Shown here in pieces: positions 10,110 to 26,483 of a DNA stretch of 32,000 nt; position 1 is the stretch's first letter; every line of letters starts with the position of its first letter. The notes under the pieces were generated by a model, which was not told the origin of the DNA, did not search any database, and saw only the letters and a program-made list of their open reading frames with translations. Both the position numbers and the translations under genes were made by a program. The DNA is from Candidatus Saccharimonadota bacterium (GTDB lineage Bacteria; Pseudomonadota; Gammaproteobacteria; Enterobacterales; Enterobacteriaceae), in the NCBI RefSeq assembly GCF_023585745.1, contig NZ_CP097762.1, forward strand, positions 540,001 through 572,000. Direction: 5' to 3'.

Positions 10110-10676
10110 TCATTCATTTTCAGAATCTAATATAGTTTCAGCCATACGTTTAGCACTTTTATTTTGACGTTCTGATTGCATATTTTTTTTATATATACCC
10201 GTATTACCTAAAACCCAAGACAATGGACGTCTTTCTTGGCTAATTGCTTTCTTTAATAATAACAAACCTTGAATATATGCTTCCGGTCTAGGAGGACAAC
10301 CTGGGATATAAACATCCACTGGCAAAAATTTATCTACTCCTTGTACCACTGAATAAATATCATACATACCACCAGAATTAGCGCAAGCTCCCATAGAAAT
10401 CACCCACTTGGGCTCTAACATTTGATCGTACAATCGTTGAATCACCGGAACCATTTTAATAAAAGGAGTACCCGCGATAACCATAAGATCTGCTTGTCTC
10501 GGTGATGCGCGTAATACTTCAGATCCAAATCGAGCTACATCATGAACCGAAGTGAATGCCGTAGTCATTTCAACATAACAACACGACAATCCAAAATTAT
10601 AAGGCCATATAGAATTACTGCGACCCCAATTCACAATTTTATGTAACATTACACTTAATTTTCCAAAAAAAAACAT
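10110..10676 (-). CDS. nuoB: NADH-quinone oxidoreductase subunit B, intact conserved core ORF (188 aa) from an internal ATG
   Basis: [33 protein letters not shown]...[11 protein letters not shown]...PGCPPRPEA matches E. coli NuoB residues about 40-220, including the N2 cluster cysteines. The ancestral N-terminus lies upstream but is frame-disrupted (next feature). Confidence 0.9.
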
Positions 10677-10787
10677 TCCGTTGTACTTTTTCTTCTAAAG
10701 GATCAGAGACAACATAATTTTTTTGTAGAGGATACAAATCATTTTTTTATCATTACTAGTTTTAGCTACTGTTAAAGTATACTTCAT
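10677..10787 (-). other. nuoB: Ancestral 5' end of nuoB, split from the core ORF by two compensating frameshifts in homopolymer runs
   Basis: The ATG at 10787 has AGGA 7 nt upstream and encodes MKYTLTVAKTSNDKK (E. coli MDYTLTRIDPNGEND). After an A7 run (plus-strand T7, 10742-10748) homology continues only in a shifted frame, [25 protein letters not shown] (E. coli [25 protein letters not shown]). After a T9 run (plus-strand A9, 10665-10673) it returns to the original frame. Unshifted reading hits TAG at 10695-10697. Confidence 0.8.
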
Positions 10788-10839
10788 AAATTATTCCTGA
10801 TAAAATGCTCTAAAGCATTAATAATTATACTAAATAATA

Positions 10840-11251
10840 CTAATAATTATTTTTTGATATAGTCACAGGCTTTTTTATCCAATTAAACACATCCATTCTT
10901 ATTAAATACAATAAACCTACCAACAAAACTAACACAAAAACAAACATTTCGATAAATCCTAACCATCCAACATCACGTATAGATATCGACCATATATATA
11001 TATATACCTTCCACATCAAAAATTACAAAAACCATCGCTATCAAATAAAATTTTATAAAAAATTTAACTTTTACGCTCCCTAAAGACTCAACACCAGATT
11101 CAAATGGTACATTTTTAGAATACGCAATAGAACGCCCGCCTAAAAAATGTCCACACAATAACATAAAACCACACAAAATTATAATTCCAAATACAAATGC
11201 TAGAATACCACAGCATTGAGGACTTAAACATATCATACAATCCCACCACAC
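10840..11251 (-). pseudogene. nuoA: NADH-quinone oxidoreductase subunit A, frameshifted inside a (TA)7 repeat (412 nt, not a multiple of 3)
   Basis: The upstream frame (GTG 11251 or ATG 11236, to TGA at 10973) gives ...[51 protein letters not shown], then a nonsense tail. The +1 frame after the repeat gives [42 protein letters not shown], ending at TAG 10840-10842. That matches E. coli NuoA [40 protein letters not shown]. Confidence 0.85.
10992..11006. repeat. (AT)7A dinucleotide microsatellite at the nuoA frameshift site
   Basis: Direct read: the run atatatatatatata, flanked as ccatatatatatatatacctt. One more TA unit would restore GIYIYIWS, which aligns without gaps to E. coli ALYLFAWS. Confidence 0.9.
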
Positions 11252-11754
11252 ACATTGACCAAATAATAATAATAAATTTTATAAAAACTTTTTTGATATT
11301 ATTAATAATTTATTCATACAATGCAAAATTAACTTAATATTCTAACTAATTATTATATCATATAATATTCCTATATTTAATCACACTATCTGAAGTTAAC
11401 ATTATAAAAACCTAATTATAATATTATATTAATAAAATATAATGATATAAACCTATACTATTATAATAATGTTTATCAATATAAAATTCTTAATATTCTA
11501 ATAATGCAATTTTTTAATTATAGAAATAACTGAAAAATTACGATTTTATTGCAATACCATACATAAACAATCTTGATTTATATTAAACATAAATATTAAT
11601 TTACATTACAAAAAATTTTTTATCACATAATCTATGTGCATACAGACAATCATGTTAATTATGACTAATATATTATAATAATATCTTAATATAATTAAGA
11701 ATTATCTTTATAAATAATATTCTTCAGACAATGCTTTAAATAAGTAACTGTTTG

Positions 11755-13032
11755 TCATATATAACAAACATCTATTTGTTTTAAAACTGGACTTACAGCA
11801 TAAAACGATCCAAACACTACTATACAATCTTCACATGATGAATCTAATACTGCTTTGTTTAAAGCATCTAATATACTATCAAATTTTTGAACATTACAAT
11901 TTATTAAATATTTAGAAAAATCTGAACAACTAGCAGAAAACGGTGTATTTAAACTCGCACAATACCAAAAATTTACTACAGAACGTAAATAATAAATAGT
12001 TCCTGAAATATCTTTATGTTTTAGCATGCCTATAACCATTCTTATGGTACCTAATTTTTTTGAAAAAAAAACAACTAATTTTTTAATTAGAAAATTAGCA
12101 GCATGCGGATTATGCCCAACATCTAATATGATAGTCGGTTTTTTCCTAATAATCTGAAAACGCCCAGGCAAAAACGCTGACTCTAACCCTGCGTGTATCT
12201 CCGATTTAGATATCAAAAAACTTGATTGTTTTAACGCGCTTAATGCAACAGCAGCATTTTCTACGGGAATTTTCGGAATCGGTAAATTATCATATATTAA
12301 TTTATAATTATCTGCTTTACTCCACCAAGACCATTGGTTTTTAAAAACTTGAAAATCCCAATCACGTCCTCTTATGAAGAGAGAAGTTTTAAAAAAATTA
12401 GCCCTCTCAATAAGAGAGTATGGACAATCACTATCACCAATTATTGCTGGTTTATTAAATCGAAATATTCCAGATTTTTCTCGTGCAATCATTTCACGAC
12501 TGTTACCTAAAAATTCAGTATGATCTATTCCGATATTTGTAATAACAGAAATATCAGCATTAACAACATTAGCAGCATCTAATCTGCCACCCAATCCAAT
12601 TTCAAGGATGACTACATCTAATGTATATTGTTTAAATATATATAAAGCAGACAAAGTAATAAATTCAAAATAAGTTAATTTGATAAAACCACGAGCCTTT
12701 TCTATAGTTGAAAACGCTTCAACATGAATACTATCTGATAATTCTCTACCACAAACTCGAACTCTTTCGTTATAAGATAATAAATGAGGAGATGTATACA
12801 AACCAACCGTAGTATTATTACGCAATAATATAGTTTCTAGAACACAACACGTAGTTCCTTTTCCATTGGTACCGCCCACTAATATTACATACTCTGCTGG
12901 ATGAATTAAATCAAGAGCTATAGCTAAAGCACGTACTCTATTAAGATTTAAATCAATAGTTGCACTATGCAAATTCTCAATATAAAGCAACCATTCTATT
13001 AAAGACGACTGCGCAGTAACAACTATGTTCAT
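11755..13032 (-). CDS. folC: Bifunctional dihydrofolate synthase / folylpolyglutamate synthase
   Basis: 425-aa ORF. WLLYIENLH, P-loop GGTNGKGTT, LGGRLDA and LPGRFQI are collinear with E. coli FolC (422 aa). It sits next to accD as in E. coli. Confidence 0.93.
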   Translation of the reverse strand: MNIVVTAQSSLIEWLLYIENLHSATIDLNLNRVRALAIALDLIHPAEYVILVGGTNGKGTTCCVLETILLRNNTTVGLYTSPHLLSYNERVRVCGRELSDSIHVEAFSTIEKARGFIKLTYFEFITLSALYIFKQYTLDVVILEIGLGGRLDAANVVNADISVITNIGIDHTEFLGNSREMIAREKSGIFRFNKPAIIGDSDCPYSLIERANFFKTSLFIRGRDWDFQVFKNQWSWWSKADNYKLIYDNLPIPKIPVENAAVALSALKQSSFLISKSEIHAGLESAFLPGRFQIIRKKPTIILDVGHNPHAANFLIKKLVVFFSKKLGTIRMVIGMLKHKDISGTIYYLRSVVNFWYCASLNTPFSASCSDFSKYLINCNVQKFDSILDALNKAVLDSSCEDCIVVFGSFYAVSPVLKQIDVCYI

Positions 13033-26066: not shown

Positions 26067-26117
26067 AATTTTATTTTTTTAAAAAACCATTGACTCATGT
26101 TGACGAACAAATATAAT
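26067..26117 (+). promoter_or_regulatory. Candidate sigma70 promoter with an A/T UP-like tract for the tRNA-Val/tRNA-Lys unit
   Basis: TTGACT (26090-26095), a 16-nt spacer, then TATAAT (26112-26117). It is preceded by aaattttatttttttaaaaaa (26067-26087). The predicted start is about 15 nt upstream of tRNA-Val (26140). Divergent from gltX, as with E. coli gltX/valU. Confidence 0.55.
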
Positions 26118-26139
26118 TCAAACCAACAACACAAAAATA

Positions 26140-26214
26140 AGGTGATTAGCTCAGATTGGTTAGAGCATCTCCCTTACAAGGAGAGGGTCGGCGGTTCGAA
26201 TCCGCCATCACCTA
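26140..26214 (+). tRNA. valU: tRNA-Val (anticodon TAC)
   Basis: AGGTGAT TA GCTC AGATTGGTTA GAGC A TCTCC CTTACAA GGAGA GGGTC GGCGG TTCGAAT CCGCC ATCACCT A. 75 nt, CCA not encoded. It resembles E. coli tRNA-Val(UAC) but has an A1:U72 terminal pair where I recall G1:C72. Confidence 0.9.
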
Positions 26215-26258
26215 TATACTATGCTAAAATCAATACAGTCAACATATATAACAACATC

Positions 26259-26331
26259 GGGTCGTTAGCTCAGATGGTAGAGCAGTTGACTTTTAATCAA
26301 TTGGCCGCAGGTTCGAATCCTGCACGACCCA
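26259..26331 (+). tRNA. lysV: tRNA-Lys (anticodon TTT)
   Basis: GGGTCGT TA GCTC AGATGGTA GAGC A GTTGA CTTTTAA TCAAT TGGCC GCAGG TTCGAAT CCTGC ACGACCC A. 73 nt, CCA not encoded. It follows tRNA-Val, as in the E. coli valU-valX-valY-lysV cluster. Confidence 0.93.
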
Positions 26332-26483
26332 AAATTAGTATATACATATTTTATTATATTTATCATAATACAATATTATCACTCAATAATAATATTAAAA
26401 ATATCTAAAACTTAATTCAGTGAAGTTAAATATAAGTATATATAACATCATTAGTACTTATATTTATTTATATAAATATATTT

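What the first reader, a model, noticed from the sequence alone, without database searches (positions are those of the whole stretch)
10840..11251. nuoA is frameshifted inside a (TA)7 microsatellite, with a conserved C-terminal half in the +1 frame
The annotated 92-aa ORF follows NuoA up to ...[19 protein letters not shown], then terminates after a nonsense tail. Directly after the (TA)7T run (10992-11006) the +1 frame reads [42 protein letters not shown], collinear with E. coli [40 protein letters not shown]. Adding one TA unit restores a gap-free alignment (GIYIYIWS versus ALYLFAWS). The lesion therefore looks like loss of one repeat unit by slippage. Homopolymer frameshifts are well known in endosymbionts. 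A dinucleotide-repeat frameshift that splits the third transmembrane helix of an otherwise conserved complex I subunit is less usual. It could represent on/off heterogeneity within the polyploid symbiont population.
Basis: partly seen in the sequence, partly recalled or inferred. Interest (0 to 1): 0.7.

Follow-up and report, generated by a model that had tools for sequence, protein, structure and literature searches.

The report
Slippery TA repeat breaks symbiont nuoA
In this carpenter-ant symbiont genome, a respiratory-chain gene (nuoA) is thrown out of frame because a short TA repeat has one unit too few. The same break occurs independently in a second symbiont lineage, so the repeat is a recurrent weak spot, but only the raw reads can show whether the break is fixed, mixed with intact copies, or an assembly error.

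Summary
The window comes from 'Candidatus Blochmannia ocreatus', a single-ant Illumina/MinYS assembly. On the minus strand, nuoA (11251..10840) is split at a (TA)7T run (10992-11006). ORF1 matches Pfam NuoA profile positions 3-62 and ORF2, in the +1 frame, matches positions 57-99. Adding one TA gives a protein that aligns without gaps to E. coli NuoA residues 18-126.

Four related Blochmannia carry the intact version at this codon position: (AT)8 in three and (TA)8T in one. A fifth lineage (L086), sister to an intact one, shows the same one-unit loss independently. The repeat is therefore a recurrent slippage hotspot created by AT-biased I-Y-I-Y-I codons.

The downstream half is as conserved as in intact orthologues, so the lesion is young, mixed with intact copies, rescued, or not real.

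The break lies at the end of TM2, not inside TM3. The adjacent nuoB carries two further repeat frameshifts (A7 and T9). GenBank appears to list both genes as pseudogenes. Three lesions within 450 nt of poorly conserved, probably gap-filled sequence keep an assembly artefact a live possibility.

Verdict: a new member of a known kind (repeat-slippage frameshifts in endosymbionts), of moderate interest.

The parts
10840..11251 (-). nuoA (NADH-quinone oxidoreductase subunit A), whole gene span. It is frameshifted. The probable start is the ATG at 11234-11236 (codon 6 of the longest ORF), and the ancestral stop is at 10840-10842.
   Evidence: Pfam PF00507 matches both halves. NCBIfam NuoA NF005839 matches the repaired protein. 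The repair aligns gap-free to E. coli NuoA. Synteny is folC-nuoA-nuoB-nuoCD, as in related Blochmannia.
10973..11251 (-). ORF1: TM1, the TM1-TM2 loop and TM2 (including the FDVE motif), followed by the 6-residue nonsense tail MVDIYT and a TGA stop.
   Evidence: PF00507 profile positions 3-62.
10992..11006 (-). (TA)7T microsatellite, the site of the frameshift. In intact form it encodes I83-Y84-I85-Y86-I87. It is one TA unit shorter than the in-frame (TA)8T or (AT)8 found in relatives.
   Evidence: The same contraction is seen in L086.
10840..10993 (-). C-terminal half of NuoA (W88 to the end: the TM2-TM3 loop, TM3 and the tail), preserved in the +1 frame. An incidental in-frame ATG at 11014-11016 lies inside the FDVE codons, with no Shine-Dalgarno-like sequence upstream.
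   Evidence: PF00507 profile positions 57-99. All 10 invariant C-terminal columns of the alignment are retained. The C/N identity ratio is 0.88, within the 0.71-1.02 range of intact orthologues. P(open by chance)=0.008.
10110..10787 (-). nuoB, the adjacent downstream gene, interrupted by two repeat-length frameshifts. The N-terminus MKYTLT... and the core are in one frame. The 25 codons between them ([23 protein letters not shown]) are in another.
   Evidence: The repaired protein and the 188-aa core both match NCBIfam NuoB models.
10742..10748 (-). A7 run on the coding strand of nuoB: the first nuoB frameshift. A8 would give NDKKNDLYPLQ.
   Evidence: The ancestral tract length is uncertain because relatives have no A run here.
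10665..10673 (-). T9 run on the coding strand of nuoB: the second nuoB frameshift. T8 gives QRNVFFGKLSV. The extra T also puts an ATG (ATG TTT TTT TTT GGA) in frame with the core.
   Evidence: L085 carries the intact CAA CGG AAT GTT TTT TTT GGA AAA TTA AGT (T8).

Best explanation
In several Blochmannia lineages, AT-biased codon choice turns the conserved I-Y-I-Y-I segment at the end of NuoA helix 2 into an uninterrupted coding (TA)8 microsatellite. This tract is a slipped-strand hotspot. In the DNA sampled from Camponotus ocreatus ant C-006, genome copies that lost one TA unit by replication slippage were abundant enough to become the assembled sequence. Reading then shifts after Y86 and stops six codons later. 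The product keeps TM1, the loop and TM2 but lacks TM3. From such a copy, full-length NuoA can arise only by reversion to (TA)8, from co-resident intact genome copies, or from rare slippage during expression.

Shown: the one-unit deficit relative to intact relatives, its independent recurrence in a second lineage, and an undecayed downstream frame. Inferred: that the lesion is in the DNA rather than the assembly, that it is evolutionarily young or coexists with intact copies, and that it reduces or abolishes NuoA function.

The two extra repeat frameshifts in the adjacent nuoB either belong to the same early decay of the operon's 5' end or flag a poorly assembled stretch.
For: - Relatives L082, L083 and L087 have (AT)8 and L084 has (TA)8T, all in frame at the same codons. 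The window has exactly one unit fewer.
- L086 (Logan assembly of SRR32934679) comes from a different project, pipeline and lineage. It has (AT)7, the same IYIYMV... read-out and an intact +1 frame. Its sister L083 is intact. That makes 2 of 6 lineages with an ancestrally uninterrupted run contracted.
- The run is unique in the window (0.01 expected).
- Fifty of the 53 homopolymers of 7 nt or more inside coding regions are in frame, including A9-T10 tracts. The assembly pipeline therefore does not mis-call repeats wholesale.
- In Blochmannia, indels occur almost exclusively in homopolymers and multimeric SSRs, including a 2-bp (AT)5 indel in def (PMC3622351).
- The GenBank accession numbers leave no protein between NuoCD (URJ24981) and FolC (URJ24982). 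This suggests the PGAP annotation pipeline also treated nuoA and nuoB as disrupted.
Against: - No reads and no second assembly of B. ocreatus could be examined.
- The genome is an unpolished Illumina assembly of one ant, made with MinYS. MinYS gap-fills at a lower k-mer abundance threshold and collapses gap-fills that are more than 95% identical.
- The three frameshifts lie within about 450 nt (P about 0.001 among at-risk tracts). They sit in or at the edge of the longest stretch (10684-12433) with no DNA similarity to a relative of the recruiting reference, next to a 13.5% GC spacer.
- Every other nuo ORF in the window is full length, and NuoA's C-terminal half shows no extra divergence. An artefact would look exactly like this.
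- Both contracted cases are -1 unit, which is also the direction of PCR stutter.
Confidence: 0.5

Rival explanations
1. The frameshift is an assembly or consensus artefact. The true majority sequence is (TA)8, with intact nuoB tracts. Stutter or indel-error k-mers, or a rare variant path, were taken during MindTheGap gap-filling or manual path merging, so nuoA and nuoB are really intact.
For: [quoted passage not shown]
- Gap-filling uses a lower k-mer abundance threshold, and near-identical alternative gap-fills are collapsed.
- All three lesions cluster in 450 nt (P about 0.001), in or beside the largest block with no similarity to the reference proxy and next to a 13.5% GC spacer.
- Nothing else is degraded.
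- A Logan contig of a relative ends in a 19-nt TA run, which hints that TA runs trouble short-read assembly.
Against: - Fifty other long homopolymers are in frame, including an A9 in folC inside the same no-similarity block.
- A 15-17-nt run is much shorter than the k-mer size. An error allele would have to outnumber the true one at three separate sites.
- The same contraction appears in an unrelated assembly made with a different pipeline.
Confidence: 0.3
2. The frameshift is real and fixed but functionally rescued. RNA polymerase realigns by one UA unit on the 15-nt all-A/U hybrid, or the ribosome makes a tandem -2 slip on AUA-UAU. Either yields enough full-length NuoA to keep the gene under purifying selection, as with poly(A)-tract frameshifts in Blochmannia and Buchnera.
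For: - The downstream frame is fully conserved in two independent contracted lineages.
- Poly(A) frameshifts in these symbionts yield 12-50% corrected transcripts (Tamas et al. 2008, as summarised in PMC5009743). Curators treat such genes as intact (PMC4389277).
- Transcriptional slippage depends on RNA:DNA hybrid complementarity after realignment, and insertions of whole tri- or tetranucleotide units have been observed (PMC5574713).
- A 2-nt shift within (UA)7U keeps every base pair of a 9-bp hybrid, and of both tRNAs. This step is inference.
Against: - Neither the recoding review nor the transcript-error survey reports dinucleotide-repeat rescue.
- There is no stimulatory RNA structure near the repeat (z=+0.55).
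- The frameshift is not shared by descent: sister lineages are in frame.
- nuoB would additionally need two slips, one at a short A7 tract.
Confidence: 0.12
3. The lesions are real and fixed, and they mark the first stage of loss of respiratory complex I in this lineage. nuoA and nuoB are dead, and the rest of the operon has not yet had time to decay.
For: - There are three independent inactivating lesions in the first two genes.
- B. ocreatus has a reduced genome (about 746 kb) on a long branch.
- The record appears to lack proteins for both genes.
Against: - Nine further nuo reading frames in the window (nuoCD, E-K, and the first 350 codons of nuoL), carrying 15 at-risk tracts, are perfectly intact.
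- Clustering of all three hits in 450 nt is unlikely under operon-wide relaxation of selection (P about 0.005).
- No amino-acid decay is seen.
- nuo is retained in all Blochmannia listed in PMC4389277.
Confidence: 0.05
4. nuoA is a split gene. ORF1 (TM1-loop-TM2) and ORF2 (TM3, started at the +1-frame ATG at 11014-11016) are made as two polypeptides that assemble into complex I.
For: An in-frame ATG precedes the TM3 coding part ([12 protein letters not shown]...), and the break falls between helices rather than inside TM3.
Against: - The ATG is an automatic by-product of the GAT GTG (D-V) codons.
- No Shine-Dalgarno-like sequence lies upstream (TTTGTAATTTTTG).
- Relatives have a single ORF.
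- No split ND3/NuoA appeared among the PDB homologues retrieved.
Confidence: 0.03

Closest known systems
Frameshifts in homopolymeric poly(A)/poly(T) tracts of Blochmannia and Buchnera genes, rescued in part by transcriptional slippage (Tamas et al. 2008 PNAS; Wernegreen et al. 2010 MBE; Williams & Wernegreen 2010 and 2015)
   Same: The setting matches: an AT-rich obligate insect endosymbiont, with a single repeat-unit indel inside a simple repeat of an otherwise intact, conserved gene. The nuoB T9 lesion in this window is a textbook member.
   Different: The nuoA lesion is in a dinucleotide repeat, so rescue would need a 2-nt realignment. The frameshift is not conserved by descent but recurs independently. 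No transcript data exist.
Indel hotspots at multimeric simple sequence repeats (mSSRs) in Blochmannia (Williams & Wernegreen 2012 and 2013; PMC3268670, PMC3622351)
   Same: It is the same genus and the same mutational class. Those authors list a 2-bp indel in an (AT)5 mSSR of def and a 1-bp A8 indel at the 3' end of nuoA.
   Different: Those frameshifting indels sit at gene ends or are compensated within 20 bp. This one is in mid-gene, removes a whole transmembrane helix and is uncompensated.
Phase-variable contingency loci with coding dinucleotide repeats (for example CT repeats in Helicobacter pylori outer-membrane protein genes; recalled from general knowledge, not checked here)
   Same: A short tandem dinucleotide repeat inside an ORF toggles the reading frame by one-unit changes. 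Repeat number differs between related lineages (7 versus 8 units).
   Different: The gene is a core respiratory subunit, not a surface or host-interaction gene. The repeat is explained by conserved residues plus AT bias. There is no evidence for adaptive switching.
Programmed ribosomal frameshifting (dnaX -1, prfB +1, arterivirus -2)
   Same: The reading frame changes at a repetitive 'slippery' sequence, on which both tRNAs could re-pair perfectly after a 2-nt shift.
   Different: There is no stimulatory structure, no conservation of the shifted arrangement (relatives are in frame), and no alternative product with a plausible function.

Membership tests
NuoA / ND3 (Pfam PF00507 Oxidored_q4; NCBIfam NF005839) | Sequence match to the family profile over its full length | tested here: met
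   ORF1 matches profile positions 3-62 and ORF2 matches 57-99. The +TA repair matches 3-99 with E=2e-26. NF005839 is matched at positions 14-122 of 122. The alignment to E. coli NuoA 3rko_A is gap-free.
NuoA / ND3 (Pfam PF00507 Oxidored_q4; NCBIfam NF005839) | First gene of the nuo operon, directly upstream of nuoB | tested here: met
   The order is folC-nuoA-nuoB-nuoCD-E-F-G-H-I-J-K-L on the minus strand, as in related Blochmannia.
NuoA / ND3 (Pfam PF00507 Oxidored_q4; NCBIfam NF005839) | One uninterrupted reading frame encoding three transmembrane helices | tested here: not met
   The frame breaks after Y86 inside (TA)7T, with a stop six codons later. The repaired model has helices at 11-38, 66-95 and 97-119.
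Endosymbiont 'frameshifted but expressed' genes (transcriptional slippage rescue) | Frameshift lies in a long homopolymeric A/T tract (about 9 nt or more) | tested here: not met
   The nuoA lesion is in a dinucleotide repeat. The feature is met for the nuoB T9 tract but not for the nuoB A7 tract.
Endosymbiont 'frameshifted but expressed' genes (transcriptional slippage rescue) | Gene otherwise intact and conserved downstream of the frameshift | tested here: met
   All invariant C-terminal residues are kept. The C/N identity ratio is 0.88, within the range of intact orthologues. The 49 downstream codons are open, P=0.008.
Endosymbiont 'frameshifted but expressed' genes (transcriptional slippage rescue) | Frameshift conserved across populations or species | tested here: not met
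   It is not shared by descent. L086 has it, but its sister L083 and also L084, L082 and L087 are in frame. No second B. ocreatus sample is available.
Endosymbiont 'frameshifted but expressed' genes (transcriptional slippage rescue) | Mixed mRNA pool containing frame-corrected transcripts | not testable with these tools
   This needs cDNA sequencing of the repeat.
Phase-variable contingency locus | Simple sequence repeat within the ORF whose unit number sets the frame | tested here: met
   (TA)7T is out of frame. (TA)8T or (AT)8 in relatives is in frame.
Phase-variable contingency locus | Repeat-number polymorphism within one population | not testable with these tools
   No reads were reachable. 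Only variation between lineages was seen.
Phase-variable contingency locus | The repeat cannot be explained by protein sequence and base composition alone, that is, it is maintained for switching | tested here: not met
   The run simply encodes the conserved hydrophobic I-Y-I-Y-I using AT-rich codons. Other lineages encode IYLYI or IYVYI, or use ATT, which interrupts the run.
Programmed ribosomal frameshift site | Slippery sequence plus a stimulatory element, conserved among relatives | tested here: not met
   No structure is stronger than in shuffled sequence (z=+0.55). Relatives read straight through in frame.

The most novel reading that the evidence does not exclude
The coding (TA)8 tract of nuoA acts as a reversible on/off element in Blochmannia. 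Polyploid symbiont populations would carry mixtures of (TA)7 and (TA)8 genome copies, and/or RNA polymerase would restore the frame by slipping one UA unit. A complex I subunit could then persist in an out-of-frame state without decaying. This would be the first dinucleotide-repeat counterpart of the poly(A)-tract rescue known from these symbionts.
Probability: 0.15. Interest if true: 0.65.

Novelty: new member of a known kind. Interest (0 to 1): 0.4.

Why it matters
If the lesion is real, AT mutational pressure has turned conserved membrane-helix residues into a self-destabilising microsatellite inside an essential respiratory gene, and the tract fails repeatedly in separate symbiont lineages. 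That would give a concrete, countable system for three questions. How often do endosymbiont genes break? Are breaks purged, reverted or buffered by polyploidy? Does expression-level slippage extend beyond homopolymers? If the lesion is an artefact, the result still matters in practice. nuoA and nuoB of B. ocreatus would then be wrongly counted as lost in gene presence/absence analyses, and TA runs should be checked in short-read symbiont assemblies.

Tried and rejected
- **Looking for the genome or an independent assembly.** Exact-protein contig look-ups failed because this genome is not indexed. The NuoA homologue search found nothing above 66% identity, so no second B. ocreatus sample exists in the protein collection. 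The organism was finally identified through FolC.
- **A -1 nt repair instead of +TA.** This gives GYIYIW, one residue short. It was rejected because relatives have IYIYI.
- **Programmed frameshifting.** No RNA structure is present, and relatives are in frame.
- **Split gene.** The ATG is incidental and has no Shine-Dalgarno sequence upstream.
- **Operon-wide decay.** NCBIfam coverage shows nuoF to nuoK are full length, and the first 350 codons of nuoL are open.
- **A gap in GenBank accession numbers between NuoK and NuoE.** This first suggested more nuo pseudogenes. It was explained by a second accession block that holds NuoI, NuoG and AccD.
- **Gene-loss table of the source paper.** No supplementary files are held.
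- **dN/dS on the C-terminal half.** Not attempted. The nearest relatives are only 55-66% identical in NuoA, so synonymous sites are saturated. Identity ratios were used instead.
- **Rfam and tRNA scans.** These showed only the four expected tRNAs.

Full report
**What is in the sequence**

The window has 29% G+C. Its minus strand carries fabB-pdxB-truA-accD-folC-nuoA-nuoB-nuoCD-E-F-G-H-I-J-K and the start of nuoL. The nuoA span (11251..10840) reads ...TTT GAT GTG GAA GGT ATA TAT ATA TAT ATG GTC GAT ATC TAT ACG TGA.

The longest ORF has 92 codons and ends ...FDVEGIYIY plus the tail MVDIYT. Directly after the (TA)7T run (10992-11006), the +1 frame reads [17 protein letters not shown]...NWIKKP through to a stop at 10840. 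The two ORFs match consecutive parts of the NuoA profile PF00507, positions 3-62 and 57-99. Inserting one TA gives a single match to 3-99 with E=2e-26, and a gap-free alignment of residues 18-126 to E. coli NuoA.

The run is the only 15-nt TA run in the window, against 0.01 expected. A 49-codon open off-frame stretch has a probability of 0.008 in this genome.

One detail is wrong. The repeat encodes residues 83-87, the last residues of the hydrophobic second helix, ahead of the polar SISIRDVG loop. The AlphaFold2 model places helices at 11-38, 66-95 and 97-119 (low confidence). TM3 is lost whole, not split.

**Where the window comes from**

FolC, NuoCD, NuoE-K, AccD and TruA are identical to proteins of 'Candidatus Blochmannia ocreatus', a 746,321-bp contig. 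That genome was assembled from NovaSeq shotgun reads of a single Camponotus ocreatus worker. The pipeline was MinYS: reads were recruited to B. pennsylvanicus, assembled with Minia and gap-filled with MindTheGap, and alternative paths were merged by coverage. Annotation was by PGAP, and no polishing is described (PMC9251289).

The GenBank protein accessions run NuoCD URJ24981 then FolC URJ24982. The second accession block runs NuoG URJ25428 then AccD URJ25429. Neither nuoA nor nuoB therefore seems to have a protein, so both are probably annotated as pseudogenes. This is my inference.

**Comparative evidence**

The closest NuoA proteins (55-66% identity) are from Blochmannia, many of them from Logan assemblies of ant sequencing runs. 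I read the DNA of eight such loci.
- L082, L083 and L087 have GGx ATA TAT ATA TAT ATA TGG, an uninterrupted (AT)8.
- L084 has AGT ATA TAT ATA TAT ATA TGG, which is (TA)8T.
- L088 has the last Ile as ATT.
- L081 and L085 have IYVY, which interrupts the run.

The window has exactly one unit fewer than the intact state.

Among the weaker hits I also found P0108. Its C-terminus (...[15 protein letters not shown]...) has the same signature. Its contig (L086, run SRR32934679) has GGG (AT)7 GG, one unit short. The +1 frame encodes an intact WSISVREIGW...NW, and nuoB, CD, E and F are intact.

In a NuoCD+E+F neighbour-joining tree, L086 is sister to the intact L083 (82.6% identity), and the window sits on a separate branch. 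The contraction has therefore been recorded twice independently, by two different assembly pipelines. That is 2 of the 6 lineages whose ancestral run was uninterrupted.

**State of the downstream half**

The window's C-terminal part keeps every invariant column of the alignment: W88, G96, W97, G99, F106, L110, L111, L114, Y116 and W125. Its ratio of C-part to N-part identity is 0.88, inside the 0.71-1.02 range of intact orthologues. L086 likewise shows no extra divergence. Each lesion is therefore young, not fixed, rescued, or not real.

**The neighbourhood**

nuoB, 50 nt downstream, has two further frameshifts.
- The start MKYTLT... and the 188-codon core share one frame. The 25 codons between them ([23 protein letters not shown], 14 of 23 identical to my recalled E. 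coli NuoB sequence) are in another frame.
- One shift is at an A7 run (10742-10748). The other is at a T9 run (10665-10673).
- L085 has the intact CAA CGG AAT GTT TTT TTT GGA, which is T8.
- The extra T also places an ATG in frame with the core, so an N-terminally truncated NuoB is conceivable.

All other nuo ORFs are full length against NCBIfam profiles, and the first 350 codons of nuoL are open. Of 53 homopolymers of 7 nt or more inside coding regions, 50 are in frame, including A9-T10 tracts. The three lesions fall within about 450 nt, with P about 0.001 over the window and 0.005 within the nuo part.

That stretch coincides with the longest block (10684-12433) lacking local DNA similarity to a Camponotus-subgenus Blochmannia, used here as a proxy for the recruiting reference. 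It also adjoins a 13.5% G+C spacer. MinYS would rebuild such a region by gap-filling, with a lower k-mer abundance threshold and collapse of gap-fills more than 95% identical (PMC7671366).

**Weighing the explanations**

The mutation type is ordinary for this genus. [quoted passage not shown] They include a 2-bp (AT)5 indel in def and an A8 indel at the 3' end of nuoA (PMC3622351). Frameshifted but otherwise intact genes number 4-8 per Blochmannia genome and are treated as rescued by transcriptional slippage (PMC4389277, PMC3017870).

My best reading (confidence 0.5) is a real slipped-strand contraction at a recurrent hotspot. It would be present at high frequency in the sampled symbionts and would be recent or coexisting with intact copies.

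An assembly artefact remains strong (0.3) because of the clustering and the pipeline. It is weakened by the 50 correct tracts and by the independent L086 case.

Efficient rescue by a 2-nt transcriptional or ribosomal slip (0.12) is mechanistically possible. After realignment the RNA:DNA hybrid and both tRNAs would stay fully paired. Traverse & Ochman show that slippage depends on exactly that complementarity (PMC5574713). No dinucleotide case is reported, however, and no stimulatory structure exists. Incipient loss of complex I (0.05) and a split gene (0.03) fit the data poorly.

**Novelty and verdict**

This is a new member of a known kind: repeat-slippage frameshifts in AT-rich endosymbiont genes. 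Three things lift it above a routine pseudogene.
- The lesion sits in a dinucleotide repeat in the middle of a conserved gene.
- The tract is generated by conserved residues combined with AT bias.
- It has failed independently at least twice while the rest of the gene stays pristine.

Whether that reflects reversible mixtures of genome copies, rescue during expression, or sequencing chemistry can be settled by counting reads across the tract in two public read sets. Interest 0.4.

Noticed in passing
window 10110-10787 (minus strand); tracts at 10742-10748 and 10665-10673: nuoB carries two repeat-length frameshifts, at A7 and T9 on the coding strand. These put 25 conserved codons out of frame with the conserved start and the core. 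The T9 tract also creates an in-frame ATG that could give a 188-aa N-terminally truncated NuoB.
   Followed up: yes
L086 1810-2300 (Logan SRR32934679): A different Blochmannia lineage shows the same one-unit contraction of the nuoA TA run: (AT)7 against (AT)8 in its sister L083. Its +1 frame and its neighbouring nuo genes are intact.
   Followed up: yes
window 10684-12433: This is the longest stretch of the nuo-accD region with no local DNA similarity to a Camponotus-subgenus Blochmannia (L085). It covers the nuoB 5' end, nuoA, the spacer and the folC 3' part. It was probably reconstructed by gap-filling in the MinYS assembly.
   Followed up: partly
window 11252-11754: A 500-bp spacer between folC and nuoA falls to 13.5% G+C. 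It presumably holds the nuo promoter. The Polyrhachis symbiont genome lists a hypothetical gene (BTURN675_488) at this position (PMC4389277 supplement).
   Followed up: no
L085 1-19: The Logan contig of a related Blochmannia ends in a 19-nt TA run. This hints that long TA runs break or trouble short-read assemblies.
   Followed up: no
GenBank accessions of window proteins: Most proteins are numbered consecutively (URJ24976-24983). NuoI, NuoG and AccD sit in a separate later block (URJ25427-25429). For each of these three, the deposited protein starts at the second of two adjacent ATG codons.
   Followed up: partly
window 11237-11251: The longest nuoA ORF starts at a GTG five codons upstream of an ATG (MICLSPQCC...). 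The ATG aligns better with the N-termini of related NuoA proteins, so the true start is probably the ATG.
   Followed up: partly
window 26097-26408 (+): A 103-codon ORF overlaps the tRNA-Val and tRNA-Lys genes (26140-26331), so it is almost certainly spurious.
   Followed up: no
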